DNA of 64,000 bases from the NCBI GenBank assembly GCA_964016885.1, contig OZ024741.1:181350001-181414000 (forward strand), read 5' to 3'. Each line of letters opens with the position of its first letter. Positions within the stretch are counted from its first letter, which is position 1. This document shows positions 5,401 through 52,820 of the stretch, piece after piece. A program made the translations under genes and the position numbers. The notes below the pieces were generated by a model. That model saw only the letters and a list, made by a program, of their open reading frames with translations, made no database searches and was not told the origin of the DNA. This DNA comes from Eledone cirrhosa (taxonomy: Eukaryota).

Positions 5401-6052
5401 CACCATATTTACAAGGAGTAGGCTAGCCCGCTGTGTAGGATCTGTGGAGGGAGAGAGGAGACTGTGGCTCACATTGTATCCGAGTGTAAACACCTAGCCT
5501 AGACTCACTATAAATGCCGGAGACATGATGTGATGGGCAGGGTGATCTACTGGCACCTATGCAAAGTAAACAATTTACCACATTCTGAGAAGTGATAGAA
5601 AACGATCAGGTGAATGTGCTGTGGGATTTTAGGATACAGACGGACAAGAAACTGGATCACAATAGACCTGACCTGGTGGTTTTGGACAAGGAAAAAAGAT
5701 CATGTTTGATTGTGGATGTAGCCTGCCCATTCGACACGAGAGTGCAAGAGAAGGAGAGGGAGAAAATTAACTGATACCAGGACTTAAAGTGGGAGGTAAA
5801 AAGGAACTGCCATGAAGTCAAAGTGGTCACGATTGTCATAGGCGCACTAGGTACTATCTCAAAGAGTTTCCAAGGATGGTTAAAGAAAATTGGTCGCGCC
5901 CCGCTTTTTGGAACACTTCAAAAGGCATGCTTGCTGGGAACAGCAAGAACCCTCCGATACGTCCTAAATATCTGAGGCTGCAGGTAGTGGCTTGATATTC
6001 ATTTCAACAAATTTTCCAGTTAAATAACATCAATGACTGAGACTCAAAGAAC

Positions 6053-6144: not shown

Positions 6145-6148
<4 letters not shown>

Positions 6149-6300
6149 ATGTTTGACCCCGACGGCAGAGCTCAAGCCGTTTCGACGGCTTGAGCTCTGC
6201 CGTCGGGGTCAAACATTTTCCTATTACCCACTCTACTACCCTAAGTATTGAGTACTCTGGCGTGTTATGGTCCATCTGGTTCCTTACCCCATCTCCTTCG

Positions 6301-6302
<2 letters not shown>
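6145..6302 (+). repeat. Short (TA)n-embedded element with a perfect 36-bp foldback
   Basis: 6145-6180 and 6185-6220 are exact reverse complements (loop TTCG); tail 6221-6302 is shared with 6890-6970. Confidence 0.85.
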
Positions 6303-6378
<76 letters not shown>

Positions 6379-6384
<6 letters not shown>

Positions 6385-6701
6385 AATTATCTATTTATGT
6401 TCATGTATGGAAAAATACTTTTTGTTTATAAATAAGCATTTAGAAATCCGTAGCTATGCAAAAACACCGGCGGCTATCACCACCTGGCCTCATTCATACA
6501 GACGAGAAAACTTTATATTCTCGCCTGTTTTCAAGTCTAGCTGCAAGAGCGGGGGGATCGTTTTGATGAAAACCAGTTCAGTTCGAAATGCATCGACAAT
6601 TGTCCCCCCCTTGCTTCTGCTGGACACCGCCGATGTTTTTTGTATAGCTACTGCTATCTAAATGTTTATTTATAAACGGTATTTCTTTAGAAATACGAAA
6701 T

Positions 6702-6707
<6 letters not shown>
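6379..6707 (+). mobile_element. Hammerhead-bearing non-autonomous repeat (subfamily B), 5'-truncated with an inverted 5' segment
   Basis: Homologous to 42850-43140(-) and 52701-52820(+); about 6423-6472 is an inverted copy of about 6627-6677; (TA)n on both sides. Confidence 0.7.
6535..6625 (+). ncRNA. Degenerate minimal type I hammerhead ribozyme with extended stem I
   Basis: TTGATGA 6563-6569 (C3>T), stem II AAC..GTT, GAA then palindromic ATGCAT, AUC site at 6594; closing pairs GGGGGG/CCCCCC, GCAAG/CTTGC, GTCTAGC/GCTGGAC. Confidence 0.6.
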
Positions 6708-6775
<68 letters not shown>

Positions 6776-6780
<5 letters not shown>

Positions 6781-6970
6781 AACGTGTAGGACCCCGAGGG
6801 CTGAGCTCAAGCCGTTTCGACGGCTAATTCTGGACCAGAATTAGCTGTCGAAACGGCTTGAGCTCAGTCGTCGGGGTCCGACTCGTTCCTATTAACCACT
6901 CTACTACCCTAAGTATTGAGTACTTTGATGCGTTATGGTCCATCTGGTTCCTTACCACATTTCCTTCGTT
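6776..6970 (+). repeat. Second copy of the short foldback element
   Basis: Imperfect palindrome 6776-6892 centred on 6834; same tail as 6221-6302; (TA)n flanks. Confidence 0.85.
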
Positions 6971-10110: not shown

Positions 10111-11609
10111 GTATGTGTCACCACGTATTTCTTCACATTGAAATCCCTTAAAAATATGGTGCCATTTGTTTATATCAGCTTAGTAGTTCCACAAATGAAA
10201 TTCAGTGGAATAAGTACCATACTTTTAAACAAAAGTGAGGGTTGGCGACAGGAAGGGCATCTGACCATAGAAGACTGCGTCAAAAACGTTTCGTCCATCT
10301 CATAACTACACGGGGAAGAGGGCGTAAAACGATGATGACTGTGATAATGACTATGATGATGATGATGGTGATGATAATGTGGAGCCGCATTCTAGAATCA
10401 GGGCTTCTAAGATAAATAAAACCTACTTACGACTATTGGTTGTAAATAGTTTAGTTATACATACATATAACTAATGTCTTAAAACATTTATGTCACTTTT
10501 GATATTCAGATTGCAACAGGTGTGATAGATAATTGTGGCTACCCAGCTAGCAAATAAAGTAATTGGCTCTATTGATTGTAATGCAAATCAGGTTAAAGAA
10601 GCATTTTGCATAATTATATATTTAAAAACTTTACATTTTAAACTGATAGCATATTTGTTTACATTATATATCAGCGTAGATTTAAGCGTAAGAATTAAGT
10701 ATCATCATCATCGATCGACAGCCACAATCCTCTTCCACCTATTGCAGTTTTCACAGTCAATTGTTGTTTCATAGTCAGGTGATTAGCCCTATGCGGAATT
10801 AGAACTCAGAATAGAATGTGCGTACCAGTCCGACGCCTTAACATTTCCTTATACCCACCGCCACTGGATTGGTATTTCATTTTATCGAAACTGAATGGAT
10901 GAATGAAAGGCCCAGTTGAATTAGATGGGATTTGAACTCAGAGCGCGGAAAGTCAGGACAAAGATATTTCATCAGACGCTCTAACTATTCTCCCAAGTTG
11001 CCGCCCATGTTAAAACAGTATAAAGAACTAAACAATTATATATACATGCCAAACTTGCAGTACAAGATGATACGGGAATAAAATAAAAACGTTTTAAGTT
11101 AATAAATAAATTATACAGTTCCTCTGTGTTAAAATAGTGAATTGTTGAGAAGTTTCTTATCTATCAAAAGGATTTCTCCTAGCAGCTTTTTACAACCGGA
11201 TGCCTTTCTTGGTACCAACCAACCCTTTCTGTAGCTTCGTACAGCACGCAGAGATACGGTGTTTCTAATTTAGACTGGATATATGTAGTATATGTTTTAA
11301 CATATTCCAGGACATTTCCGAGTCAGTTTTCTCCCTCTTGTTTTCAGTCGTTTCTTTATTGTGTCCGAAGTGCGAGGTAGGCAACACGTAGCTTTCAAAT
11401 AGAAGCGACAATTATGGTTAGCTGGCTGAATTTCTTTTGTCCCAATGGGGTTTATTTTGGGAGTTTATTTTGGGAGAATAAACATGAGTAATATTTTTTG
11501 TAAAATTGTTACAAACTAGTAATTCCTCACAATATAGTGTTTCTTATATATTTGATATTTAACAATCTCTAAACCTGTTTCAGCATATTGTGGATCGTCT
11601 ATATTGGTG

Positions 11610-12895
11610 CATCAGAGGTGATGAAGAGGTGTGATATCATCCTGGAGTTCTGTAACCAGGCACTGGAGAAAGTAGTTGCCCCGAATCAGTGGAGGATCAG
11701 TAACATCGTCCCAGTGCCAAAGAAGGGAGATCTCTCTAACACTAACAACTACAGGGGGATCTCACTGACGTCACTTGTGGCAAAGACCCTCAACAGGATG
11801 ATTCTTAATAGGATCCAGCCCGAGATGGAGAAACTCAGGGACAAGCAGAACGGCTTCAGAGAGGGAAAATCAACCACCAGTCACATCCTGATGCTGAGGA
11901 GGATATTAGAGGGATCTAGAGCAAAGTGCCTTCCTGCGGTCATGGTTTTCATTGACTTTAGGAAGGCCTTTGATTCTGTGAACCGTCACTGCCTGATGAA
12001 GATCTTACAGGCTTATGGAATCCTCAAGAAGCCAGTAGACCTGATATCACTGCTCTACACCAACACCCAAGTCATTACACCTGATGGGATGACAGAGTTC
12101 TTTGAGATACTGGCTGGAGTGCTCCAGATTTAAGGCAAAAAAGATATCGGATGCTGAATTTGCCGATGACATAGTTTTGGTGACAAACACAGTGAAGGAG
12201 GCAGAGAATTTCATGGAGCAGGTGGAGACTGTGTCGATGAGTGTGGGGCTGAGAATGAATGAGATTAAGACAAAATATCTGGTAGACAATATTAAGAAAC
12301 CAGAGAAGATTACTAATGTAGGCGGGAAGCCGCTAGAATTGGTTGAGGACTTCCTGTATTTGGGAGCAAAGATTGGGAATACGGAAGTTGATGTGGTTGA
12401 GAGGAAGAGCAAATCCTGGGCGGCGTGCCAAAGCTTGAGATCGGTGTGGAAGTCAGAACTTCGTAAAGACCTGAAGATCCGCCTCTTCGTTGCTGTAGTG
12501 GAGTCTGTGCTGCTGTATGGGTCTGAGACTTGGACACTGACCAAGAAACTCACTCAGATGGCTGAGGATAGCTCTGAACATTAATCAGTATACACTGAGG
12601 ATGAAGAACTCAGAGCTGTACGGGAGCCTCCAAAAAGTCAGCTCAAAAGTGATACAGAGGAGACCGAGGTTAGCTGGACATGCTCACCGACATCCAGAGT
12701 TGACACTGCCCTCAGTGCTCCAGTGAGAGCCCCTGCATGGACCCACTGGAAGAGGAAGACCGAAGTTAACATATGTTGATGCCCTAAGGACAGACACTGG
12801 ACGCAGGACATGGCAGCGATAATAAGGGACAGAGACCGCTGGAGAGAGCTCGTCCATGGATCTCGGGAATTTTACCCGCCCTAGATAGATAGATA
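11610..12895 (+). mobile_element. 5'-truncated, internally deleted RTE-clade LINE
   Basis: PVPKKGDLS..NYRGISL, QNGFR, FIDFRKAFDSV, GVLQ jumping to EFADDIVL, FLYLG, LLYGSETWTLTK, LAGH, GRGRP; ends in (GATA)n. Confidence 0.9.
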
Positions 12896-19249: not shown

Positions 19250-19660
19250 TTTACGTAGACCACGGAGTGTATGTGCAAAAACGCACCTGTACCGTGTCGT
19301 ATTTGTGACAGTATTGTATAAGCTCAATGTACGAGAACAGAGCCGTTATATGTAAAAGAAATCAAAGAACGCCTACATACTCATACAATTTTTATTTGCT
19401 GACAATGTTTCATCCATACCATGGGGCAGGAATCATCAGAGCTTTATAAACAAAAATACAGTGCTGAGTATAAGCTCTACCAAGCTTAGTCACATGAACA
19501 TTAGAAATACAACAGAGGGTAACAAGAGGGAGATCGGAAATGGAGAATATGGAGAGAGTGCATAATGGGGTTGTTATTCAACACTACAGCTATATGCTAG
19601 GGTACAGGCAGAATTTTTTCACAAGAGGCGGAAGCACGTGAGGGCATACATAAGCAAAAA
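19250..19660 (-). mobile_element. Solo pLTR fragment of a Naiad-type family related to the 44.5-49.7 kb element
   Basis: Reverse complement aligns with 49450-49670; abuts (TA)n at 19235-19250. Confidence 0.7.
19398..19443 (-). ncRNA. Minimal type I hammerhead ribozyme (pLTR)
   Basis: Minus strand GCT CTGATGA TTCCTGCCCCATGGTATGGAT GAAAC ATT GTC AGC: intact core, GUC site. Confidence 0.75.
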
Positions 19661-20084: not shown

Positions 20085-23000
20085 TTTTATTAAAATAACA
20101 GATTAAAGTTTAAGCAAAGAATCGCTGCTTTCACCCTTAACGGGATCTTCTGAAACTAACAAAGTCAATCTGTAAACGCAGAAGTGGATATTTCAAAAAA
20201 CGTTGTAACCGGAGGAAGACAGGAAGACGATACTTTGGTTCGTGGAAACGTTCCCTGGCAAAGAACGGGAAAAACGAATATAATACGTCATTAATAGGAG
20301 CGGTGAAAAACAATTACGCGCAAAGACCGAACCACGTTTATGGTATAAAAGAAGTCGTAGACTAATTATCTCTTAGGTGGTTCATAGAGACGTTCTCTGG
20401 CAATGAACGGAAAAAACGAAGATAATACGTCATATGTGGAGCGTAGAGAACAATTGCACGCAAAGACAAAACCACGTAAATGGTATAGCTGAAGTCGTAG
20501 ACTAAATTCTAACTAGGAAACCGAATGAATCTCCGCTTCAGAGTTAAGAAAAAAGTAAATAAATACAATACAGGGGTAATAGAAATTAAATAAATGCATA
20601 CACACATTCAAATACGTACATACACAAGCATACGCAAAACACTTGCCATAGGTATACAAAACCACGCACATATAAATATGTGTGTGTGTGTGTGTGCGTG
20701 TATACAAATAAATAATTAAATAAACGTATATAAATAAATAAATACGTATATAACAAGCGCACCCACATACCTACATGTAAATACACAAATGTTCGAAGAC
20801 GTAAGTCAGCCAAAACATGAAGTACACATATACACACACCCTACATACGTACGAACCTGCATACACACGCAGACGCAAAACTCCCGTATACACATAACCA
20901 AACCATATGTACCAGAAAATATAAAAAATGTATACGCCACAACATAATCACTCAAATATACGCATGAGGAAGTATACGTACCTTCACAAAACATACAGGT
21001 AATATATACTTACCTATGCAAATAAGTATAAACAAAACATATACTTAGCTACCACATCAAGACGTAACAAATCCACGTATAGATCGTACTATCCGTTAGG
21101 GTATAATGTGGGGCTGTAATACAGGAAAGTTTTGTGCAATTTATGTTTACAAGCCGAAATTGCCTCAGATTTTTTGTTTAAGTTGTGGTTTGTGGCGTAG
21201 AGTATTTCCAGGGCCTCAGCGGCGCAGAGGTCACATGGTCTTTTATTTCCGTTATACGATCTAGCCCTAGCTAGGATGTCCCAGTGTAACTTAAATTGGG
21301 TGTGGTTGTCTTTTAGACTCCAGATATAAGCTGAAAGTGACGTCATATTCCTTCTAAGAGGGTAACGAAAAGAATGGGTATGCATGTAAAGACGCTGCTT
21401 GAATCTATTGGCGGTTAACCCTATGTAGGCCCTACGGGACGTGGGTGTTTTAACCTTACATTTGTAGACAATGTTACTAGAGAGGCATTTCCCGGATAGG
21501 GGGCAATCAACCTGATTCCTACAATTACAGTTAGTACTAACTACAGGGTTGCACGTGTTCCTACGGTTAGGTAGTTTAGCTAAATTTGAAGCTGTGATGT
21601 TATGTGCAAGGTTAGGAGTCGTAGAGTAAGAAATTTTAATAGTATTTCTATTAAATATTTTACTATATTTATGTGTAGGGGGAAAATGCTTCGTAATAAG
21701 GGAAGAAAGATCTTAGCTAATGGTGTGGCCACCTCCATATTATATGGTGGGTTATACCAACAAATACGACGGGATCTATTACTTCTAGGTCTATTTTCGT
21801 ACTCTGTATATGCTACCTTATCGACAAATCCACTCCGAGCAAGAGCTTCATTGTAATAAGTGGAATGGTCGTTGAAAATATGCTCGTTAGTAGATAGACG
21901 GGAAAGCCTCAACGAAACGTTTCTTACCAGGTTCTTGGTTATGCTGGCAGGATGGTTGGAATGCTTACTTAGGTAATTAAGCGTATCATTCGGCTTTCTA
22001 TACGGGTAATACAACCCATTCGATAAATTGAGGGTAACGTCGAGGTAATTAACGACCGAGAGATTGGCCTCAACCTGTATAGAGAGGTTGAAACCTTTAA
22101 AGAAGGCTGTGAGTTCTTTTCTGAATCTGTCGCAAGCACGAGGTCCGCACTTAGTCATGGTCAAAAGACCATCATCACGGTACAAACCACCGCCCGCGTT
22201 GGGGAATTCGTCCTTGATAGAGAAAAGAAGGAAAAGGCCGATAAGATCAGTAACCTCCGCAGAATCGCTAGCGCCCATACTCACGTCGAATGGGGGTACT
22301 ATTGGATTTTTTAATCCAAATAGAGTCGTCGAAATTAATCACCGACTTACGGGCATTGAGGATGACATCAACTTCGAAATCCTTTACCACTGTGAGTGTT
22401 TTAGCGAAATTGATAGCTCTAAGGTGAAGTGGTAAAGTGATGGAGGAGTAGTAATTGTTGATGTCGAATTGGATAAAACGGCAATGTTCCTTGTTGCACA
22501 TGCCGTTGAACCAATCAATCACCGCGAAAGAATTGTCCCACAGTGCAAGAGGGGCCAAACTTCTAATTTCAGGTATAATTCTATCAAGAACCCTTTTACT
22601 AAGTCTACCTAAATCGGACTTCGTAGGGTTAATAAGCCGAATAGAGGAGTTGTTCTGAAAATTGGATTTGTGATGCTTCACGGTAAAGTGGGGAGAAATA
22701 GGGTCCAGAGGTTCGGTCCGGTCCAGGATGTTGAGATCAGAGGTGATTTAAAACCCAGCATCGTTGATTTCATTGATGACGCACCGATTAGTTTTACGGT
22801 AATCCTTAGTAACAGCATTATGTAGTAGTTGATGGTACGTACTGCGCTCCACTTGATATAGGTTGCCAGTTTTGTCGGAATGGACGTGCACGGCATTAGA
22901 ATCCTTAATAGAACGAATTCTATTCTTCAGGTCCTGCTCCGTATGAGTTCCAAGACATCATTTTCGAAGGGTAGCAATGCTGGGTTACACGGGGGGTTAT

Positions 23001-23232
23001 TATAGGTTTTAAACCCAAATTTATCCTGTTTGTTGTCTGCTTTTCGCGGATTATCGCGGATTATCGAAATAAAAGGCACGCCAACGCAACCTTTTAATGA
23101 ACGCGTCTGCTTTCTATATCAGGAGTTTTAGGTATGTTTTCCTGCTTGGTACGGGTATGTTCTTTGTAGAAATATTCAGATGTTGTTTCTGCATGATGAA
23201 TATAAGTCAATAGAGTGCTCAACCGAGGGAGC

Positions 23233-23415: not shown

Positions 23416-23796
23416 TATAAAGAATTCGAAGTTTGAAAGCCATGACAATGCGGGTTTGGACGGAGAATAATTAAATCGTAAGAAACAGGGTCTGTTTTTT
23501 TACCTTAATTTATTCTTATGTCCTGATATTTCGAGAATAATATCTCTTTTTCCGAGGAAAATAAAGGAACTATTCCAGTGTCCGATGTGGCTTGCTATAC
23601 CATGCTGACCGGAAGGTATAGAAAGCCTCACCGGACACTGGGATAGATCCTTTATTTTCCTCGGAAGAAGAGATATTAATCTCGAAATATCAGGACACAT
23701 GAATCAATTAAGGTAAAAAAACAGACCCTGTTTCTTACGACTTAATTATTCTCCGTCCAAACCCGCATTGTCATGGCTTTCAAACTTCGAATTCTT

Positions 23797-25059: not shown

Positions 25060-26422
25060 TTTTTCTTCTTATCGTGTCCACAAGAGTGTCAGTTAAAAAG
25101 CTTCGCTAGATGTGGTTTCGCCACAGCTGAACACATTGCTGTTTTTTCTCATTAAACTGTTCTGAGTCCAATACAGTGCAGGAGTGTTCTAGCAGGGGGC
25201 ATATCAGGAGGTGTTGCATAATCTGTGGTTCGATGCCACATTCACATACAACGTCCCCATCCTTTAACTATCCTCATTTTACAAGATTGACTTTTGCACG
25301 TCCAACACCAGATCTTATTCTGTTGAGGCATTTCCACGCTGCATAGTTTATATCTGCTCCAGGTGGCAGTGCCTCACTCGCCTTTAGCTCCATTATTGTT
25401 ACTGATAGGAGGTTGTTAAGTTTTTCTTCCCAGCGAGAGACTCTTTCACTACTTATGCTTGATATTCCAAGGGTCATGACGCACATTAGGAAAATTTTCA
25501 TGGACGTAAGGTGGCCTTTGACTGGCACATGGCCGAAGAGAGAATGTTTTTGATCTGTAGTTTGTTGTTGACGCTCTTTCTTGCTTGCTGCACTTCATCG
25601 TACCTTTTGTGGGGTTATGCTTGCCAGGATATTCAGACGGCTCGTTGGTGTAGCTTTCAGGTAGCCTGTGATGAGGCGGCATTTAGTATTGAGGGCGGGA
25701 TCTATATTTTGAACATGGACAGCTCGCTCCTATACTGGGCATGCATACTCGGCAGCTGAGTAGCAGAGGGCTGGAGCAGTTGACTTCAGAGTCTGTGGAT
25801 TTGCACCCCAGATTCTGCCAGTGAGCTTGCGGATGATGTTGATCCTCGCATTAACTTTGCACTTGGTCTTCTCAATGTGGATCTTAAAAAAGAGACACCT
25901 GTCCAGGGTTACACCGAGATAGACTGGGTGCTCACAGTGTTCAAAGGGGGTTCCTGACCAGTTAACATTCAGTTGGCGCTTCGTTTCATGGTTTCGCAGA
26001 TAGAAGGCAAGCACCCGCGTCTTGGATGAACAAGCACGCAGGTGGTTCGGTTCTCTTCATAATAAGGTGTTGGCTCTTCCGGAGCATTTGAGAGTCTATC
26101 TTCCACAACTTTGAAATCAGTGTCTTGTGCACCTTTGCCAAGATAGTCTGCATAGATGAAGCGACGGGTGTCTGCACTTCTTGGTTGGTCGTTGCTGTAA
26201 ATTTTGAAGAGAAGTGGTGCATGCACACTTCCCTGTGGGAGGCCATTCTTAAGTCTTCGCCATCTGCTTATCTTCTCTCCTAGCCCAACAAATAAGTACC
26301 TGTTTTCAAGCATGCTTTCAGTCAACTCCGTCAGACAGGTGTCTCTTGTGGTCTCCAGAATCTTGCTAAGGAGATGTCTGTGGTTGACTGTGTCATAGGC
26401 AGTTGGGAGGTCGACACACGCG
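25060..26422 (-). mobile_element. 5'-truncated Vingi/Ingi-like LINE
   Basis: VDLPTAYDTV, GLPQGSV.APLLF, FIYAD, YLGVTLDR, WGANPQTL..ALCYSAAEYACPV, WKCLNRIRSGVG, C-terminal CECG..QHLLIC; stop near 25107. Confidence 0.85.
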
Positions 26423-27222
<800 letters not shown>

Positions 27223-34725: not shown

Positions 34726-37309
34726 ACGTGGGAAAGTAAGAAATCGGAGAATAGACCGTTAAAACATGTTTATTTAAAACAGCATCTACGTACGTTTCGC
34801 CCAGTTGGGCTTATCAAGGGCATAAATAATCAAAAGGGTTCCTTATATTGCTCGGAAAGGTTCATTGCTCGCAAAAAAGCTTGTTTTGATTTTGCAGCAG
34901 GTCAAGGGAGGTAACTCTGGCCGGTGTTAGGGCAGTCTTTCCCGGACAATTTTTTTTATCCGCTAAATTTGATGAGGTTACAACCTTACCATTGTCAATA
35001 CGCATGTAATCAACGCTTATTTTGAGAATTTTTTTTGCCGCATCTGTTTGTCTGAGTCGTTTGGGGCTGGGTCTGGTATGCAAGGATAGTTTCCTGGGTG
35101 TTATTTTGCAGCGCCTGCCCGCCGGGGTGTTAAGACTTGTTGCAGGGAGATCCGGTGCACGGTTTTACTCCTCATCCCTAACCCATCTGAAGAAGGATAA
35201 TTTTAAGCGATGTGTACAACTTATCGCTGTTTCAGCTCTACTGTTGATGAGCTCGTGGGGTGCAGTTATGATGTGGTAGAGCTCCATGAGGCAAAGATCG
35301 CATTTCCTTTTGAAGTTATACGGTGCAGCCCTGCCGACAATATCCCAGTGCGTAGAGAAGCTGATGTTTAAGTCCTTTAGTGATGTGATGTAGTCCGCGA
35401 GCGAAGTAGAGTGTCTTAGTTTTTTATTTGTGAAAGAGTGGAGATGTGTTCTAAACCTAATTTTGAACGGGCTGGAGGTAGCCCCTATATAATGCTTAAC
35501 GCTATTATGGCTAGTTATAGTGAATCTATATATAACCCTATCAGTCAAGCAGTATCCTCTAAGGGGGCAGCGTCCTCTGTCGCGGCAGTTGCAATTTCTG
35601 TCGCGGTTCCGTCTATTTCCCACGGTAAGGCTATCATTGTTGCTGCCTACGTTGTTACCCACGCTACCGCAGCTGTCGTTAACACCATTACAACCCACAG
35701 CACGCGGGGTGGTGCGATTGTTATTCCGCACGTCATGTCCTGCATGTTCCTCAGTCATTTCGGGGTTATGCTGGTTGCGTCTGCGGATGCCGTTGCCAAC
35801 ACTATTGGATGCTGCCAGGGAGTTGTTAAGGCCGATATAGTTATTGTCAGGTATAGGTGCGTCTGTGTCGAGGTGCTGTGTCTTGGTGATCTTACCGTGG
35901 TTCGTTGTTCCTATGATGTCTGCTAGGTTAGGAGTAGTAGAGAAGGATATTTTTATATTGTCCCTATTAAGAATTTTTCTATACCTATGGTTGGGCGGGA
36001 AGTTCTTCACTAAGGCTTCGAAGAACATCCGGGATATGTTGGAGGCCACACTCCGAGAGTAGGGGGGGGGACCATAGGACATTACGGTGGCGATTACGTG
36101 TCCTTGTACGTTTGCTACGGGTGGTTCCATCTAGGTGACCGCTCTTATGTGTGTTAATGCGCAGTCGCCCGTTCGGTGCCCCATTCACTTTATGCTCGGG
36201 TGCACTCTTCCTACCTCTTCCATGTTTATGTACAGGAAAATGTTGGTAGTAGGCCGTCACCTTTGTTGATTGTGTAATAGGTGAATAGTTCGAGTAATCT
36301 ACAGTGGTCACCGTCGCCGGGGTCGTGAACTTTAGTGCGGTTATCTATTTATTATATCCGACATCAACGAGGTCGCCGCGTGATCGGTTATAGGTATGGC
36401 TTACTATAACGTTCGTTTTATGAGGGGCTGGTTTCTAGAGATAGCGTTAGGGATGTAGGAAATTCCTTGGTTAAAACCGGTGCTTATCAAGGCCCTATTG
36501 TAGTAATCTGCCGCTTGGTTGAAGATATGTGAGATACTATAGACTATGGAGTTGAGAGTCTGCTTAGGGTGGTTGGAGGCATAATTAATATAAGAGAGGC
36601 ACTCTCCAGGCTTATGGTATGGCTTGTATAAGACCGTACTCAACTCCAGGGTCACGTCCAGGAAGTTGACAACCTTGTGGTTGAGGTCCATAGTTACGGA
36701 TAGGCCGTATGACTTGAAGAACCTGTGTATATGTTTGTTAAGGTTCTCTATCCTATGGGGGCTATGGTTCCTAACGGTAAACAGGGTGTCGTCCCTATAT
36801 ACACCTCCTTGTAGGGCCGGTATCCCTTCCCTAAGCTTATGTAGGAGGTATATCCCGACCAGGTCAGTTGCTTGCGCTGAGTCACTGGATCTCATCGTGA
36901 CATCGAAGTTATCAGAACGGTTGGTTCTGGTCCAGTGGGAGCCTTCGAACTGGATAATGGTTCTACGCACCGCTAGAACTATGTCTATTTCTTTTTTAGT
37001 GAGGCTAGTGTTAGATTTAGCTAAGATAAGTGCCTTATTTAAGAGTATGGAGAGATAGAGGCGTAGTAACTATCTATGTCAAACTGGATGAACTTCAGGG
37101 TGGCTTTATCCGGCAACTCGGTGAACCAATTTATGACCTGGTCGGTGTTGCCCCAGAGGCAGACCTTAGCCTTTCTATTAAGCTCCAGTAGTACTCTGTC
37201 GAGGATCACTTTACTAATCTTACCTATATCTGATGTAGAGGGGCATATTAGTCTAATAGAGGGGCTTTCATTAAAGTCATATTTGTGATCCTTAAGAGTG
37301 AATTTAGGG
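34726..37309 (-). mobile_element. 5'-truncated Naiad-type PLE (RT, long linker, GIY-YIG, 3' UTR)
   Basis: PKFTLKDH, FIQFDI, SSDSAQATDLVG, YRDD, NFLDVTLEL, CNCRDRGRCPLRGYC..VIY..YIG..CDLC..CTH; ends in (TA)n. Confidence 0.9.
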
Positions 37310-38440
37310 TTGTAATGGTGCTAACGACAGCTGCGGTAGCGTGGGTAACAACGTAGGTAGCAACAATGATAGCCTTACCGTGGGAAATAGACGGAACTAC
37401 GACAGAAATTGCAACTGCCGCGACAGAGGACGCTGCCCCCTTAGAGGATACTGCTTGACTGATAGTGTTATATATAGATGCACTATAACTAGCCACAATA
37501 GCGTTAAACATTATATAGGGGCTACCTCCGGCCCGTTCAAAATTAGGTTTAGAACACATCTCCACTCTTTCACAAATAAAAAACTAAAACACTCTACTTC
37601 GCTCGCGGACTACATCATATCACTAAAGGACTTAAACATCAGCTTCTCCACGCACTGGGATATTGTCGACAGGGCTGCACCGTACAACTTCAAAAAGAAA
37701 TGCGATCTTTGCCTCATGGAGCTCTACCACATCATAACTGCACCCCACGAGCTCATCAACAGCAGAGCTGAAACAGCGATAAGTTGTACACATCGCTTAA
37801 AATTATCCTTCTTCAGATGGGTTAGGGATGAGGAGTAAAACCGTGCACCGGATCTCCCTGCAACAAGTCTTAACACCCCGGCGGGCAGGCGCTGCAAAAT
37901 AACATAGGAAACTATCCTTGCATACCAGACCCAGCCTCAAACGACTCAGACACAGATGAGGCAAAAAAAACAACTCTCAAAATAAGCGTTGATTACATGC
38001 GTATCGACAATGGTAAGGATGTAACCTCATCTCGTAGCGGATAAAAAAAATTGTCCGGGAAAGACTGCCCTAACACCGGCCCGACTTACCTCCCTTGACC
38101 TACTGCAAAATCAAAATAAGCTATTTTTGCGAGCAATGAACCTTGACGTGGATTTAACCCCCAAAACTCTTTCCGAGCAATGTAAGGAACACTTTTGATT
38201 ATTTATGCCCTTGAGAAGCCCAACTGGGCGAAACGTACGCAGGTGCTGTTTTAAATAAACATGTTTTGACGGTCTATTCTCCGTTTTCTTACTTTCCCAC
38301 GTGCTTACGCTCTGCTAACCCTCTAGCCCACTAAATATTAACACTTCGAATATTTAATACTGCCGGCACTAGTATCGAGCATCTTTGGCATACGCTACTT
38401 GGCAAATAACTATATGTATTACCTATCCTCCCCTTTTTTT
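37307..38440 (+). mobile_element. Inverted duplicate of the same PLE's GIY-YIG domain and 3' UTR
   Basis: 37307-38302 is the reverse complement of 34726-35696; ORF 37341-37838 is nearly identical to the C-terminus of ORF 35165-36130. Confidence 0.9.
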
Positions 38441-42849: not shown

Positions 42850-43140
42850 ATTTGTATTTCGTATTTCTAAAGAAATACGGTATGTTTATAAATAAACATT
42901 CTGAAAGCCGTAGCAATGAATATAACAGTGGCAGCGAACGCCGCCAGGCGGTGTTCAACAGAAGCGAGGGGGACAACTGTCGAAGCATTTTGAACTCTAC
43001 GGTCTCTCCCGCTCTTGCAACTGCCAGACTTTCAAACAGGCGAAAATATATAGTTTTTTCGTCTGTGTAAATGAGGGAATTAATCTCATTTGCATATGAA
43101 GCAGCATAAGTTGTCTCAACTTAAAATAGAATTAGAATAT
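42850..43140 (-). mobile_element. Octamer-hammerhead repeat (subfamily B), full span with a damaged ribozyme core
   Basis: Minus strand: ATTCTAATTCTATTT start, ATGCAAAT (43088-43095), body homologous to 6490-6700, CTGANGA box missing, 3' hairpins TGTTTATTTATAAACA and CGTATTTCTTTAGAAATACG. Confidence 0.7.
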
Positions 43141-43158
43141 ATATATATATATATATAT

Positions 43159-43522
43159 ATTAAGACAGGGGGAAGAAAAAAATGGCTTCACTTGTGCTTT
43201 CAACAAATTTATTTTCTTCACACAATCCAAAAAGACCTTTCACGCTGAGGTGCGCTTGACAAGCGCACCTCAGCGTGAAAGGTCTTTCTAAAAACGAAAC
43301 AATACATCCTACGTTAACCAAGAACTCCTAAGACCTAACCAACAACCAACAACTTAATTTATAAACAATTTTTTTTTAAGAAAAAACAAATTTTTTCTAA
43401 TCCGGAAAAAAATTCTTTTTGGATTTTGTGAAGAAAATAAATTTGTTGAAAGCACAAGTGAAGCCATTTTTTCTTCCCCCCTGTCTTAATATACCTAACT
43501 GTACCAAGGATTACACACATTT

Positions 43523-43528
<6 letters not shown>
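43159..43528 (+). repeat. (TA)n-embedded element with nested inverted repeats
   Basis: Perfect 28-bp hairpin 43231-43287; outer inverted repeat about 43159-43235 versus 43414-43492. Confidence 0.85.
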
Positions 43529-43583
<55 letters not shown>

Positions 43584-43904
43584 CAAGAAAGGGTAAATAT
43601 TCTGTGGCTGTTGATCGCGGATAGATAGCTATCGTTTATTTATCTATTGTTTCTTCATAGGTATCTTTTAATCTTATAGCCTTGTTTAATTGATTTTTTG
43701 TGTGGTTGATTATGCTGATTGGGAGAGGAAATACTGTATATATTTTATCAAATGATTCTATGGACTTACTTTCTTATATATTGCTCTGATTGTTGATTAT
43801 TTAATTAATTCGTCATTGAGCCACACCGTGAATGGTTGCCAAAAACATATATATATATATATATATAGCTCTGTCTAGTTTATGTATATCTAAATCTATA
43901 TATT

Positions 43905-44206: not shown

Positions 44207-44251
44207 AGTCATAGTTCTTTCGTCACACACTCTGTGACCTCTTCAGTGACT
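44207..44251 (-). ncRNA. Intact minimal type I hammerhead ribozyme in a short (TA)n-embedded fragment (about 44060-44285)
   Basis: Minus strand AGTCA CTGAAGA G GTCAC AGAGTGT GTGAC GAAAG AA CTA TGACT: perfect stems I and II, CUA site. Confidence 0.8.
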
Positions 44252-44392: not shown

Positions 44393-44487
<95 letters not shown>

Positions 44488-45052
44488 TTTAAGAATAACC
44501 AAAGAGTGCTTAGAAATACATTGTTTTATTTGCTAACAGTGTTTCATCTATACCCTATGGCAGGAATCATGAGAGCTTATAAACAAAAATATATCAGAGG
44601 TTGTAGGCTCCATCAAGTTCAGTCACCAGAACAAGGATAACGGACAAGTAGGAGGGTCCCAAGGCCTGCACTATATAGAAAAACACACAATACATGACGC
44701 ACATAATGTCACAAAATGTCATAAAAAATTTACATAAAATTTTTATCACATAAATGGTGCAAAAGATGATTCCTGCCATAGGGTATGGATCAAACACTGT
44801 TAGCAAATAATACAATGCATTTCTAAGCACTCCTTGGTTATTCCTAAACTTATAACGGCTCTGTAGTGTACTAGTTATCCTACATTGAGCTAAACCCACA
44901 CTGTCATACCAAGGGCAATATATCTGCGTGTCAGTGCACATTAATATACTTGTCAACGAATCTATAACGGCTCCCCTTGGGTTGAGCTAAAAGATATAAC
45001 CACTATACACATATATGTATTCGTAGATCTATATAGTTATAGTCGCACACTG

Positions 45053-47628
45053 GTGTATAAAGTTGACAGTATGCTAACCAAGGACCGTCTACCTTTGTCA
45101 CTCAAGAACATTCCCATCCCATCTAAGAACACCTACGACAGGTTGCTCATAGCTAGCGTGGACTCATTTGTTAACAGATTAAGGTGGCGTGCTTTCCACT
45201 ATGATAGGAACCGGGATAGCCCTCAGCAAGCAACCCGGGTGGATAGGTATGGATTCAAGACTCCACCGCATAATAGTAGTCTGGAGGGCTTTGAAAATGA
45301 CCTACTAAACCTTGTGAGGAATATTAGATATAGGAATAAATGCCATAGCAAGAACCAATTCCGTAGAGATCTTAGCTCTATTATTAAGGGCTTCGAAGAA
45401 AATGATAGCAGTCTCGTACCCTCAGATAAAACAAAAAATATATATAACTTAGACTATAGGATTTACAGAAACTTCATATACAAGGAACTCCATAGAAATT
45501 ATAAGAAAACTTCCTACGATAACCTAGACGAGATAAATATGAAAAGGCTTGAAATTGTTAAAATGGTGAATCTGGAAAGGTACACCCAACCATTCACTCC
45601 TAAGCAACCCAGATTCACACTGAAGGATCACAAAGAGGACTTCATTAGTAACACCTCAATTAGGCTCATTAGCCCCTCTAAGTCTGACCTAGGGATAATA
45701 AGCAAGAGAAGTTTGGACGCCGTGATCCCTGTTATAAGAAGTAAAGTTTACCTTGACCTATGGGGTAATACGGAGCAGGTTATTAAATGGTTCTCAAGCG
45801 TTAGTAACCATAACTCCCAAAAGTTCATCCAATTTGATATTAACTCCAACTACACTTCCATCTCTCCCATCCTTCTAAATAAGGCCCTTATATTAGCTAT
45901 GCAAAATAGTGACCTGACTAGATCCCAAATTGATATTATCCTTGCTGCCCGAAGGACTATCATCCTCTTCGAGGAACAACTTTGGACCCGGAAGAACACG
46001 CCGAATAACTTCGATATCACAATGGGGTCCAGCGATTCGGCACAGGTCACTGATTTGGTTGGATTATACCTCCTCCATGAACTACATAAGACATTCCCGC
46101 ATTTCAAAGGCGAGCGGTACCGTGATGACGCCCTATTCACTATTGAATATAAAAAACATAATATAGAAAGGACGAGAAAAGACCTACATAAATTCTTCAA
46201 AAGCTTTAACCTTAGTACAACGATAGACGTAAATAATAAAACGGTTAACTTTCTAGACGTAACCCTGGACCTGGAAAATAAATACTTCTCACCTTATCAC
46301 AAGCCAGATGAAACACTAACATACGTAGATGCCAATTCCAACAACCCTAGACCCGTCCTAAATGCCATAATTAAAGGGGTATCCAATAGGATTAGCAGAC
46401 TATCACATAATGAGGATGCATTTAGGTCTAATGCAAGGTACTATAATAAGGCACTAGAAAAGTCCGGTTTTAGAGAAAAAAATGTACTATATACCTAACA
46501 ACTCCCAAACCACCAGGGACGGACCGTATAATGTAATCACGCACAATATGGCTTTGCCTAATAGAAGCAGACACAAAAATAGGAACAACATGGGTGCAGT
46601 AAGCGGCTCTGACCAACCCCAACCGACTTCATCTAACAGGTCTCCTCGGTGTAGCAATAATACTAACAGTAGGATAAAAGCTAGAAACTTGAGATAAAAT
46701 AGGAACGACAGGGAAACCAGAGAACCCCTCCGGGTAAGGTTACCACCACAGGTTCTCTCTACCACAGAAGGTGGGATGTCTACGCGCGGTGCTAACTATT
46801 CCCCCAGTACGAAAAATAGAAAATATAGACGAAGATCTAATCCCTACTTTAATCCACCTTACAACTCGGTGGTATCAACCAATATACCAAAGGCATTCTT
46901 TTCGATCTTTGAAAAAACTCCCCCCGCCCCGGTAGTAAATACCAGAGCATCATTAATAAAAACACAGTTAAGCTATCTTTCCCCACCACTCCAAATTTAG
47001 CTCATCACCTAGCCCTAACGAACAACAGAAAAATTAGAAAGGGTATCGATACCATTGCATCTGCGGGATATCGCAGCCACTAGAAGGACCAGATGCGGAG
47101 TTACCTTGCAGTACTATCCACACATCTGATGTACGGTTGCCAAATCAGGCACATACGGAAGACCAACCATCTCCTGTACCGCAGAGTGACATACACTGCA
47201 AATGTAACTGCAGACGAAAGGCGGAGTGCCCCCTGAAGGGGCTATGCCTTATAAACAATATTGTCTACGCTTGTGAAGTTACAAATCGGACATCTTCCAA
47301 AACATATATAGGATCTACATAGACCTCCTTTAAGACTAGATACAACTCCCATCGCTATACGTTTAGTCATGATAGACTTATGAACACCACATCCCTAGCT
47401 AGTTACATATCCCCCTGAAGACACCAATACTCAATATACGCTTGATTGGAGAATTATCACTAAATCATCGCAGTACAGACCCCTCAGCAAGACTTGTGAC
47501 CTTTGTCTCTCTGAATCGCACGCCATAATATACTCCAAACTGAACCTGTTAAATAGGAAATCGGAAATATTCTCTTCTTGCCCGCACATAAATCTTAGCT
47601 CCTTCTATTACTTTAGACCACTTAGCTA
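45053..47628 (+). pseudogene. PLE reverse transcriptase plus GIY-YIG ORF; 481-aa open N-terminal part, then frameshifts and stops
   Basis: SLKNIPIPS, LRWRA, SDKTKNIY, FTLKDHK, FIQFDI, MGSSDSAQVTDLVG, YRDDAL, NFLDVTLDL, YFNPPY, CNCRRKAECPLKGLC..IVY..YIG, CDLCLSE, CPH. Confidence 0.9.
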
Positions 47629-49504
47629 ACGCTGTAGGGCATGCACCCCCTATCAAGCCTACGTAAAACCACGCCACCCTTGTTCCTGGTTCCTCTGTAA
47701 CCATTACTGCCCTTCAAGTGTATATAGGTTCCTCTCCTCTTTTATTTCTCTCTTCCCTTCTCTCTTATTTTTTCTTCCCCTTTTCCTTAATTCATCCTTT
47801 TACCATAAGCCAATAACCCATAGGGTACAACCTACTTAAGGCTTTTCACTATACCAAGCACAGTTCGACCCTGTACAGGCACCTACCCATACTGACCAAA
47901 GGGATATGGTTTATAAACATACCCATTGTGCGCTAACTGATAGCACAGCCAAATAGTTTGTCGAAAGCCCAACAAACTCCGCCGCAGCTATAAGGCGGAT
48001 GGCTTGGGCATCTGGGGTCCAGATAGCCTTGACCTTAGGGTGAGAGATGGATCCAACATAGTATAGTGAACAATATGAGCAAATCGAGTGGACTAAGTGC
48101 CACAGGATCGATCAAACCCCAGAAGGAATGGGTATCTTGTCGCTGACGAGTTTGAATCGAACAAATGATTTGCCCCAAGCGTTCAGGGGATATCTAATGA
48201 ATCCGCCCTTTATGACGCGAATTGCCTCCCATACTTTTCATAAGCATACAATGACATCCTGAGTTTGTATTCGGACAACCGCTGTGTGTTACTAGCGAAT
48301 GGGTAACCTTTGAAATTGTGGAATATGAATTGTGCTGCAAATATGATGAATTATAGAACCACACTCAAGGCAGTGTGCGACGGTTGATATTGACTTCCAG
48401 CCCACCCAGGATGGGTTATACTCGACTGTGAAAGGATTTCTACCTCCGGATTCAGTAATCTACACCAAAACCACGTGGCGGACATGTAAACAACATAGTT
48501 GTCATTAACAGTTTTAGCTGTGAGTTTACCATATATTCTACAGTATCTGCACACAACAGAAATGTTGCACTCACTCTAATAAGCCCGCTTATTAATGTAA
48601 CCATAACTGATTTTCCTTCACTCTGCCATAGGTAATTCCGTAAGCGGAGTTTTCTATATACGCTTTCTGTCTACGTGACTGACTAGCCATCACGAATAAC
48701 ATTTACTGTGGTATATTTGCATATGGTATGGCACTTTAGTTGATGTCAACTCGGCCATACGATGTATTTCACTTGGGACGTTGGGTTGCGTGACCGAACG
48801 TGAGGACTTTGGGAGATAGCAGATATTGCGGACCTGTCTTATTTTCACTTTCTTCACTGGAGTGCCGGCTGTACATGTACTCTACTCAGCTTCACATCAT
48901 CGTACTTTTCTTTATTTTAGATTTAAGGTATTTATTGCAGACTGCCTATGTGGAGAAATCCTCTAGGTATATGTTTTGGAAACATAGTATTATATCGCCT
49001 AACGCTTGGGACTGGAACCAATGGATGGAGGGTGTTGATATGATATGGAGAAATCGACCTGTTACAAGGTGATATAACTGGAGTGCACCATCCTTCCTAT
49101 AGACAATCCTACATGTAAAGCTGCATCACAGCTAACCAACTTTTCTTTTCACTGACTCATGCTTGCAAGCTCTCATATTCTTCCTGTACATCCTGTATTT
49201 GCACTGCTTGTGAATTGATGTATCTATGATTTGTTTTGTTTTTTTGTTGTTTTTTTATCATGCTGGGTAACACCCTCACTCACTTCTTGCTATCCTCTCG
49301 CAACCTCCTTATCATCTCTTGCACCATTTATGTGATAAACTTTTGATGTAAATTTTTTATGACATTTTATGACATTATGTGCGTCATGTATTGTGTGTTT
49401 TTCTATATAGCGCTGGCCTTGGGACCCTCCTACTTGTCCTTTATCCTTGTTCTGGTGACTGAGCTTGATGGAGCCTGCAACCTCTGATATATTTTTGTTT
49501 ATAA

Positions 49505-49549
49505 GCTCTGATGATTCCTGCCATAGGGTATGGATGAAACACTGTTAGC
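49505..49549 (+). ncRNA. Minimal type I hammerhead ribozyme in the 3' pLTR
   Basis: GCT CTGATGA(49508-49514) TTCCTGCCATAGGGTATGGAT GAAAC ACT GTT AGC; GUU site; mutated copies at 44530-44577(-) and 44765-44805(+). Confidence 0.75.
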
Positions 49550-49703
49550 AAATAAAACAATGTATTTCTAAGCACTCTTTGGTTATTCCTAAACTTATAA
49601 CAGCTCTGTAGTATACTAGTTATCCTACATTGAGCTAAAACCACACTATCATACCAAGGGCAATATATCTGCGTGTCAGTGCACATTAATATACTTGTCA
49701 ACG

Positions 49704-49860
<157 letters not shown>

Positions 49861-50174: not shown

Positions 50175-51298
50175 TTTATAGATCCATAATTAACTCCATA
50201 GCATATAGTATATCCCTTAGAATATCCCGCCTATCCTCAAACCAAGAAATTTTTAATGAACATACTATTTATTATAACGCAACATTACATAAGGCTGGAC
50301 ACAAAGAAAAGCTGTAGTTTATAACAAATAAGGAAAACACAAACAAACCCATTAACACCAACACTAACCGCCCATACAAAAATAAAGATAAGAGGACTAG
50401 GCATAGAACTAGGCAAGTAGCACCAAGAGTAGGAGGACGGAACACTAATAATAGAAACTCCAGAAACTATAGAAGAACTAGAGAAAGAAAATACCTATGG
50501 TTTAATCCAATCTTCAACTCCTCTATAATAACTAAACTGCCTTCTATGTTTTTTAAACTAATAGATAAACACTTCCCTACATCGCATAGATACCATAAAA
50601 TCTTCAATAGAAAAACTATAAAACTTTCATACTCTACTGTAGCCAACATCGAATCGCACATACGCAAGATCAATCACAAAAATACCTCTAAGGAAACTAT
50701 CCCACCTATACGCAACATAGCACCAAACACTAAACACAAATATATTACTGTATCACAACCACAAACGCATAGGAACACACCACAGCAAAACTTCAATAGG
50801 CATGAATCACAACCCGCACATAACATTTTGCAAAACCGCAATGTGAAAGCTGCACGGAATAATACTTCAAACTGCAATTGTCACCTACCAGATAAGTGCC
50901 CATTAGCGAATAGGTGCCTAGATTCTAGTCTAGTGTACATATGTACTGTAAACTCGGGCAACTCCCCATGGCACTACATTGGATCCACCGCGTGTGTTTT
51001 AAAAAAAAGGCGGTATGTACACAGGAATTCAATGAAGAACCGTGCACTGGTAACCTCTACAACCCTCGCCAATAAAATCTGGCAACTTAAGGACAAAAGC
51101 CTTGATTACAATATTAGCTGGTCAAAATTAGCGGCCGCAAAGGCCTATAGCAGTGGTATGTCCCATTGCGGGCTCTGCAACCTTGAATTGCTACATATCT
51201 TAAGGAACGACAAAATGCTACTCAACAGCAAAATAGAAAGGTCAATTTTCTGCAGACATAGGATTGCTACAAAATTAGCGAGATTTAAACCACCGTGA
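50175..51298 (+). pseudogene. 5'-truncated Naiad-type PLE: end of RT thumb, linker, and open GIY-YIG ORF 50546-51298
   Basis: SLRISRLSSNQEIFNEH, WFNP, FFKLIDKHFPTSHRYHKIFNRKTIKLSYST, CNC..CPL..C..LVY..YIG..CGLC..CRH. Confidence 0.88.
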
Positions 51299-51605: not shown

Positions 51606-51792
51606 TGAATTGACAGTATCGATAGAGGGTTGGTCGCCATGCTTTCTAGCATAGTTACGTCCCTTTAGAGTCTGAGTTCAAATCCCGCCGAGGTTAACTT
51701 TGCCTTTCATCCTTACGGGGTCGATAAAATAAAGTACCAGTAATGTACTGGGTAATTGCTGGCCTTGTGTGTGCCTAAAGTAGAAACAATTA
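51606..51792 (+). mobile_element. SINE full copy
   Basis: Matches the family consensus. Confidence 0.85.
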
Positions 51793-52112: not shown

Positions 52113-52520
52113 TACTAGTTTCAAGCTTGTTAGCTATCGTCAGCAACGTATACCTTCCTGCCAGATTGTTGAACGTATATACTTATATTTAAGTAACAGC
52201 CGTACTAAGAGTGGGAAATGAAATATCGTTTCATTTTTTCCGTTTATCGTTTTCGGTGCACCCGGCCGATTAACCCACTCGATATGCAAATTGGGCTACT
52301 CAGCCGTTAATATGCATAAGGTAAGTATATACGTTCAACAATCTGGCAGGAAGGTATACGTTGCTGACGATAGCTAACAAGCTTGAAACTAGTACAGCGT
52401 TCCTTTGTCAGTGTTGAACAAACGAGCAACGGTGGTTGCTAGACACTACGGCTTAATACGGGATGTTTGTTTACAAACACACCGAGCATTATAATAAATA
52501 TTCGGTGAATCCATACGTGC
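52113..52520 (+). mobile_element. Octamer-hammerhead repeat (subfamily A) with a 73-bp perfect inverted copy
   Basis: ATGCAAAT 52284-52291, then GCTACTCAGCCG shared with 26984-26995; 52113-52185 is the reverse complement of 52322-52394; 3' hairpins, then a TA/TG tract. Confidence 0.8.
52333..52419 (+). ncRNA. Intact minimal type I hammerhead ribozyme with extended stem I
   Basis: ACGTTG CTGACGA(52364-52370) T AGC TAACAA GCT T GAAAC TA GTA(52394) CAGCGT; outer pairs AAGG/CCTT, CTGGCA/TGTCAG, GTTCAACA/TGTTGAAC. Confidence 0.85.
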
Positions 52521-52629
52521 ATATATATATGTGTGCATGTATGTATATATATGTATACATACTACTGTACGTCGGTATGCATATGTGTGTGTACGTGTAC
52601 ATACTTATATATATATATACGTGTACATA

Positions 52630-52700
<71 letters not shown>

Positions 52701-52704
<4 letters not shown>

Positions 52705-52820
52705 TAATCCTATTTCAAATTTGAGACAACTTATAAAGCTTCATATGCAAATGAGATTAATCCCCTCATTTACACAGACGAAAAAACTATATATTTTCGC
52801 CTGTTTGAAAGTCTGGCAGT
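52701..52820 (+). mobile_element. 5' half of a subfamily B octamer repeat
   Basis: Near-identical to the reverse complement of 43018-43138; ATGCAAAT 52745-52752; TA tracts on both sides. Confidence 0.75.

What the first reader, a model, noticed from the sequence alone, without database searches (positions are those of the whole stretch)
52186..52520. Octamer plus hammerhead non-coding repeat family: candidate Penelope-mobilised retrozyme system
Seen: five loci (6379-6707, 26549-27222, 42850-43140, 52186-52520, 52701-52820) fall into two sequence subfamilies sharing one layout. The order is an AT-rich start (ATTCTAAT..TATTT in three copies), a perfect ATGCAAAT octamer (four copies; 80-90 nt before CTGANGA in subfamily A), a minimal type I hammerhead, two 3' hairpins, then a TA/TG microsatellite. 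None has an ORF or tRNA-type A/B boxes. Known: minimal type I hammerheads occur in PLE pLTRs and metazoan retrozymes, and newt satellite 2 combines a hammerhead with an snRNA-type octamer-containing promoter. Inference: this is a self-cleaving non-autonomous element with an internal promoter that uses the machinery of the (TA)n-targeting Naiad elements nearby. I do not know of a description from cephalopods but cannot search to confirm novelty.
Basis: partly seen in the sequence, partly recalled or inferred. Interest (0 to 1): 0.85.

Follow-up and report, generated by a model that had tools for sequence, protein, structure and literature searches.

The report
Retrozyme repeat with U6-type promoter
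This is one young copy of a very abundant, protein-free repeat whose tandem units each hold a predicted self-cutting RNA and a close match to the host's own U6 small-RNA promoter, and whose insertion scars indicate that it is likely pasted in by Penelope-like retrotransposons; the kind of element is known from other animals, but the matching promoter suggests how such repeats get themselves transcribed.

Summary
The unit is 341-467 bp, in head-to-tail arrays, in at least four subfamilies; an evenly spaced 0.8-Mb sample gives about 1.4% of the DNA, roughly 100,000 insertions. The hammerhead is a canonical type I with covarying stems and a palindromic helix III; only two of the five window loci keep an intact core. 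Insertions show Penelope-type scars: (TA)n targets, two fixed 3' ends, inverted arms, scattered 5' ends. It is not a pLTR. The octamer belongs to a box that the host uses at -76 to -79 in seven Pol III genes (U6, U6atac, MRP, tRNA-Sec) and in none of nine U1/U2 genes; a TATA follows, but 4-5 bp closer than in host genes. Nearby PLEs are Hydra- and Neptune-type, not Naiad; the mover is unidentified. No RNA evidence was available. Verdict: a new variant of the metazoan non-LTR retrozymes. The scan reported this family, with the same promoter reading, twice before elsewhere in this genome.

The parts
52113..52185 (-). Inverted second arm, unit positions 137-209; its 3' end falls exactly at the predicted cleavage site
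52186..52253 (+). 3' tail of the preceding unit: hairpin, T6 run (52234-52239), long 3' insertion end of other copies at 52247, T4 run (52250-52253)
52283..52294 (+). Octamer-containing box (ATGCAAAT at 52284-52291), matching the box at -76 to -79 of host Pol III genes
52326..52331 (+). TATATA, 42 bp after the octamer start (host genes: 46-48); predicted start site about 52356
   Evidence: start site inferred
52333..52419 (+). Type I hammerhead at the tip of a long stem; CTGACGA 52364-52370, GAAA 52385-52388, predicted cut after 52394; CTGGCAG is one arm of the long stem
52420..52515 (+). 3' hairpin region of the unit
52516..52610 (+). TA/TG-rich spacer that is part of the 422-bp unit; the direct arm ends at the short 3' end (52610), followed by (TA)n target
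52701..52820 (+). Subfamily B fragment: tail, octamer box, TATA; stops before the hammerhead
26549..27222 (+). Subfamily A2 insertion: inverted tail piece, partial unit (26658-26929) and full unit (26910-27222) with intact core at 27063
42850..43140 (-). Subfamily B copy with octamer (43088-43095) and decayed hammerhead core
6379..6707 (+). Subfamily B two-arm insertion (inverted 6379-6487, direct 6488-6707), no octamer, one core substitution

Best explanation
It is a protein-free tandem repeat family with a type I hammerhead fold and a host-matching U6-type promoter sequence in every intact unit, and it is likely a non-LTR retrozyme transcribed from that promoter and copied into (TA)n repeats by a Penelope-like element. 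Shown: unit, arrays, covarying ribozyme fold, insertion scars, promoter match. Inferred: Pol III would start about 30 bp after the TATA, 39-58 nt before the cut site; many transcripts would stop at the T runs in the tail; those that read into the next unit would be cut at two hammerheads (probably as dimers through the palindromic helix III), giving a 341-467-nt monomer that includes the promoter and is likely ligated into a circle; a PLE RT/endonuclease would prime at two fixed sites about 60 nt apart and copy round the circle, so new insertions are tandem and carry new promoters. My odds: retrozyme 0.9, PLE-moved 0.85, working in-unit promoter 0.65, Pol III 0.5, circular template 0.65.
For: Dispersed copies 97-100% identical and arrays at 422-424-bp period. 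Helix I paired in 46-54 of 55 distinct sequences per position with several pair types; loop 3 palindromic in 47 of 55 as three different words. Circular fold z -7.2, -9.2, -11.3. 19 of 22 resolvable young arms end at two fixed sites, in (TA)n; 5 of 7 two-arm insertions have one long and one short end; 36 of 122 clusters are two-armed. TATGCAAAT is the only 9-mer common to three consensuses, also in subfamily C. Box plus TATA in 7 of 7 host Pol III genes and 0 of 9 U1/U2 genes; units score 13.9-20.4 bits on the Pol III matrix (host leave-one-out 12.9-26.0) and -13.2 to 3.1 on the Pol II matrix (host 9.8-16.9). 18 of 21 box matches in 0.8 Mb lie in the family. 6 of 10 dispersed multi-unit insertions have a marker shared by all units of an arm.
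Against: Box-to-TATA spacing is 42-43 against 46-48 in host genes, and insect Pol III promoters keep this spacing tightly (PMC1761439). T4-T6 runs lie between tail and promoter and must be read through. An ATGCATAT variant occurs in 4 of the 7 runs that cover the site, at 105 of 161 depth in one. The box also sits in an RNA hairpin in A1, B and C. The 7 host genes were chosen as real genes after inspection; 14 further U6 and 3 further U6atac matches lack the box (read as retrocopies). 4 of 10 arrays lack a shared marker, and local duplication is visible in others. No PLE 3' end examined resembles the unit. Li 2026 saw cleavage in only 1 of 9 predicted Xenopus elements.
Confidence: 0.6

Rival explanations
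1. Same retrozyme and same working promoter, but read by Pol II as an snRNA-type promoter, as reported for newt satellite 2; the T runs are then no obstacle.
For: TCAG lies 26-27 bp before the TATA in A1/A2, the spacing of TCAGT in host U1/U2 (23-28); T4-T6 runs in every unit; octamer spacing off by 4-5 bp.
Against: Pol II matrix scores are far below host genes, and C lacks TCAG; no host U1/U2 gene has the box.
Confidence: 0.15
2. The box is a relic or an RNA element (hairpin or protein site); units are transcribed passively from host read-through and released by the ribozyme.
For: Box pairs in predicted hairpins; variant lineage without a perfect octamer; no RNA data.
Against: The box arm is constant while its partner arm differs between subfamilies; box and TATA keep a 42-43 spacing in four subfamilies and match host Pol III genes.
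Confidence: 0.17
3. The unit is the solo pLTR of an autonomous PLE not yet seen.
For: Same insertion geometry as PLEs; Li 2026 finds Xenopus retrozymes related to pLTRs; only some PLE families were examined.
Against: Of 85 free 5' flanks, 2 had a PLE ORF upstream in sense within 1 kb (one interrupted by the insertion), 3 in antisense, and no common upstream body; pLTR and hammerhead regions of 7 PLE-type stretches show no clear likeness; arrays run unit to unit without an ORF.
Confidence: 0.05
4. An ordinary satellite that spreads by DNA-level duplication, with a chance or dead hammerhead.
For: A roughly 30-kb array with higher-order duplications exists.
Against: Dispersed identical copies, 5' truncation, fixed 3' ends, inverted arms and compensatory changes in the ribozyme.
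Confidence: 0.03

Closest known systems
Metazoan non-LTR retrozymes (Cervera & de la Pena 2020, PMC7229834; Li, Clavereau & Pollet 2026, bioRxiv 10.64898/2026.07.22.740005)
   Same: Short (150-450 bp) low-GC tandem units, type I hammerhead per unit, no ORF, self-paired predicted circle, coexisting PLEs proposed as movers.
   Different: Host lineage not among those I saw named; neither text that I read describes an endogenous promoter or fixed PLE-type ends; C unit (467 bp) is slightly longer than the 2020 range; expression and circles are shown there, not here.
Schistosome Sm-alpha hammerhead SINE-like repeats (via review PMC6765202, passages)
   Same: Promoter followed by hammerhead, Pol III, tandem copies needed because the promoter ends up at the 3' end of the cleaved RNA.
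   Different: Their promoter is tRNA-type (recalled); here there are no A/B boxes and the match is to an upstream U6-type promoter.
Newt/axolotl satellite 2 (PMC7229834 sections; PMC6765202 passage; octamer/snRNA-type promoter recalled, primary paper not held)
   Same: About 330-bp tandem unit, 1-bp helix III with palindromic tetraloop, snRNA-type promoter within the unit.
   Different: Reported as Pol II; here the box matches host Pol III genes and has a TATA.
EN+ PLE pLTRs, Hydra and Neptune clades (Craig 2021, PMC8557442)
   Same: (TA)n target, partial tandems, inverted 5'-truncated arm, tail at one end only, hammerhead near the 3' end.
   Different: No ORF, no sequence likeness to the PLE ends examined, and those lack the box.

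Membership tests
Metazoan non-LTR retrozyme | Short tandem units, low GC, no ORF, no LTR | tested here: met
   341-467 bp, 38% GC for A1/A2/B; longest ATG frames 20-56 aa, 140 aa only across the repeat spacer of A2
Metazoan non-LTR retrozyme | Type I hammerhead in consecutive units | tested here: met
Metazoan non-LTR retrozyme | Highly self-paired monomer | tested here: met
   z -7 to -11 for A1, B, C against 40 shuffles; A2 not folded
Metazoan non-LTR retrozyme | Self-cleavage and circular RNA in vivo | not testable with these tools
   no RNA holder listed
PLE-mobilised element | (TA)n target, fixed 3' ends, tail at one end, inverted truncated arm | tested here: met
   geometry as described in PMC8557442
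PLE-mobilised element | 3' sequence shared with an autonomous partner | tested here: inconclusive
   no clear likeness in 28 comparisons with 7 stretches (best p 0.03); Neptune 3' ends only inspected by profile search and eye
Solo pLTR of an autonomous PLE | Unit flanks an RT-EN ORF | tested here: not met
Naiad partner | N-terminal GIY-YIG elements nearby | tested here: not met
   window remnants C-terminal EN with RWR, DKT, CxCX5C; 16 of 16 long GIY-YIG loci C-terminal; no Naiad query was run, so remnants elsewhere are not excluded
Pol III type 3 (U6-type) promoter | Host proximal box | tested here: met
Pol III type 3 (U6-type) promoter | TATA at the host's distance from the box | tested here: inconclusive
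   TATA present at 42-43, host 46-48
Pol III type 3 (U6-type) promoter | T-run-free body ending in a T-run terminator | tested here: inconclusive
   0 runs in the four consensus bodies but not significant (P 0.08-0.56); 7 of 17 B copies have one
Pol III type 3 (U6-type) promoter | Transcription by Pol III from a defined start | not testable with these tools
   no raw RNA reads
tRNA-derived SINE / Sm-alpha type | A and B boxes | tested here: not met

The most novel reading that the evidence does not exclude
A Penelope-dependent retrozyme that has captured the host's upstream U6-type Pol III promoter, something a linear SINE cannot carry, and keeps it by cycling through a circular RNA whose rolling-circle reverse transcription rebuilds promoter-bearing tandems; about 1.4% of a 3-Gb genome and still amplifying.
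Probability: 0.4. Interest if true: 0.72.

Novelty: new variant of a known kind. Interest (0 to 1): 0.55.

Why it matters
How animal retrozymes are transcribed and what moves them is left open in the papers read. This family offers a concrete, host-matched promoter, two fixed priming sites and very young copies, so both questions become directly testable. An upstream (type 3) promoter is normally lost on retroposition; a tandem or circular cycle would explain its survival. The comparison also outlines the host's U6-type promoter, of practical use for small-RNA expression in this animal group.

Tried and rejected
Rfam scan: only TA-repeat artefacts among the 150 of 195 rows shown. Pfam: none of 10 PLE fragments matched. 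No RNA holder listed; the eight runs laid were contigs of unknown or DNA kind, so nothing on expression. Within-subfamily conservation of the octamer about equals its flanks (A2 0.96 against 0.89/0.95; B 0.94 against 0.89/0.93): uninformative, as expected for neutral decay. 5' ends do not pile up at the cut site; single cases lie at or beside it (window arm, L004, L141). T-run asymmetry not significant; the T10 in my A2 linker consensus is an alignment artefact. Mover not found: a Hydra family is abundant (49,427 candidates) but its 13 long frames end before the nuclease; Neptune-type frames of 844-1,096 codons exist but share no end with the unit. CTGGCAG as a promoter motif: rejected as needless, it pairs and covaries in the long stem. 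Dimer cofold is compatible with palindromic pairing but proves nothing. Papers not seen: Lunse 2016 not held; supplement of PMC7229834 unreadable and bioRxiv supplements closed; they may list cephalopod retrozymes.

Full report
Observation. The five loci exist and fall into two groups. Four carry ATGCAAAT. Only two keep an intact hammerhead core, one has a core substitution, one has lost it and one stops short. The window lies on contig C2 of a 3.0-Gb assembly. I did not test the species; earlier scan notes call it an octopus.

The unit. The 52186 copy (A1) matches dispersed loci at 97-100% identity, many in head-to-tail arrays of 422-424 bp (40 of 584 candidates scored). A2 (about 89%) and B (about 80%) are older and also form partial tandems. 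A fourth subfamily, C (467 bp), and an older A form turned up in the sample. Eighty evenly spaced 10-kb stretches (60 of them from the four largest contigs) held 26 insertion clusters in 20 stretches and 11,192 matched bases of 800,000: about 1.4%, or roughly 100,000 insertions by extrapolation (Poisson range about 64,000-140,000; my arithmetic). All eight runs laid, labelled as eight organisms, have contigs on the unit, one across the tandem joint.

The ribozyme. Among 55 distinct family hammerheads in the DNA held (selected by a core pattern and an upstream octamer-like word), helix I is paired in 46-54 of 55 at each of six positions with several pair types, loop 3 is palindromic in 47 of 55 as CTAG, CATG or TGCA, and a T follows helix I in 54 of 55. 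This is the canonical metazoan type I form of Cervera & de la Pena 2014, active as a dimer there (PMC4209133, section 4 and passages). Helix I continues into a long stem that explains the conserved CTGGCAG. Circular monomers fold at z -7.2 (A1), -9.2 (B) and -11.3 (C). Cleavage is predicted, not shown.

Insertion scars. In 18 young loci I counted 27 arms and dropped five (two run off the locus, one older copy, two nested). Of 22, twelve end at unit position 59-62 and seven at 418-3, in (TA)n; three end elsewhere, one of them the window's inverted arm, exactly at the cut site. Five of seven two-arm insertions have one long and one short end. 5' ends are scattered. This is the PLE geometry in Craig 2021 (PMC8557442, passages and supplement rows). 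Arms cross the cut site intact, so the template was uncleaved or religated RNA. Six of ten dispersed arrays share a marker through all units of an arm, four do not; one array gave no output, and a 30-kb array shows later local duplication. That fits, but does not prove, a circular template.

Not a pLTR, not Naiad. Of 85 free 5' flanks, two have a PLE frame upstream in sense and three in antisense; shared flank sequence (9 pairs) is microsatellite or looks like other host repeats. PLE remnants in the window carry Hydra-clade motifs and other hammerheads without the box. All 16 long GIY-YIG loci fetched are C-terminal, mostly Neptune-type. No end resembles the unit. The mover is unidentified.

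The promoter. TATGCAAAT is the only 9-mer shared by the A1, A2 and B consensuses. Host U6 (three loci), U6atac, RNase MRP and two tRNA-Sec genes all have this box at -76 to -79 and TATA at -30/-31; five U1, four U2 and the RNase P gene have TCAGT-type elements instead. Seventeen weaker U6/U6atac matches lack the box and look like retrocopies. Units score within the host range on the Pol III matrix, with at most 2.6e-6 of background positions as high, and poorly on the Pol II matrix. In the sample, 18 of 21 box matches lie in the family; 13 have TATA[AT]A at 42-43, four C copies TATAA at 43, one has lost it; none of 3 background matches has a TATA at 40-50. Against: spacing 4-5 bp short, T4-T6 runs to be read through, an ATGCATAT variant in four runs, and hairpin pairing of the box.

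Known systems. Non-LTR retrozymes are described from coral, mussel and axolotl with circles shown (PMC7229834, parts 2-4 of 6 and passages) and from vertebrates (Li 2026, parts 1-3 of 5). Promoter-plus-hammerhead tandems are known in schistosomes (Pol III) and newts (Pol II) (PMC6765202 passages; the newt octamer is recalled). A squid genome paper counts 235 hammerhead matches without describing elements (PMC6962438 passage). Ten searches listed no description of a cephalopod retrozyme or of a U6-type promoter in one; most hits were seen as listings only, searches showed 20-25 of 241-2,330 papers, and Repbase/Dfam were not available. PMC10886601, PMC5680766 and PMC6004067 were checked by term only and added nothing. 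After my own tests, the scan's index showed two earlier reports on this genome with the same reading; they are not independent evidence.

Verdict. A real, abundant, recently amplified retrozyme family: new variant of a known kind. Interest 0.55; 0.72 if the U6-type promoter cycle is shown.

Noticed in passing
L109, L110, L111, L117, L121, L218, L219; L091-L093, L101-L106: Host snRNA promoter layout: octamer box at about -77 plus TATA for Pol III genes, TCAGT at about -57 for U1/U2, and a shared distal CTCCC-type word near -260 in most U1, U2 and U6 loci.
   Followed up: partly
L122: The RNase P RNA gene has the U1/U2-type TCAGT element, not the Pol III box; possibly Pol II-transcribed.
   Followed up: no
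window 21092-23170 (-), 35168-37835, 44485-49706 (+), 50180-51298 (+): Decayed Hydra-clade PLEs; one has its own hammerhead pLTR at 49508 and a two-arm structure.
   Followed up: partly
L258-L271: Thirteen copies of one Hydra family have 548-562-codon frames that all end before the nuclease domain, with no canonical hammerhead of their own seen downstream.
   Followed up: partly
window 43141-43620; L298: Two-arm terminal repeat of a Neptune-type family (a 1,096-codon open frame in L298) beside the B copy across a (TA)n tract.
   Followed up: partly
L178:2385-4975: A 5'-truncated Hydra element joined head to head, without microsatellite, to a 5'-truncated retrozyme arm; possible chimeric insertion.
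   Followed up: partly
L299, L300, L303, L310: A Neptune-type family with a palindromic-loop hammerhead about 370-400 nt after its ORF, same helix III design as the retrozymes but no sequence likeness noticed.
   Followed up: partly
L119, L127, L128: U6 and U6atac retrocopies preceded directly by (TA)n or mixed microsatellite; perhaps also inserted by PLE enzymes.
   Followed up: no
G000:C12:20402000-20431500 (L228-L230, L237): About 30-kb array of the A1 unit with higher-order duplications and internal tail junctions.
   Followed up: partly
window 44212-44246 (-), 19404-19439 (-); L176, L196, L145, L141: Further hammerhead families unrelated to this unit and without the box.
   Followed up: no
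window 6148-6310, 6780-6970, 23449-23767: Small repeats with long internal inverted repeats between (TA)n tracts.
   Followed up: no
window 2790-5421, 11573-12584, 25274-26400, 51630-51790: Decayed LINE RT fragments (Pfam RVT_1) and a short repeat that looks like a tRNA-derived SINE (label recalled).
   Followed up: no
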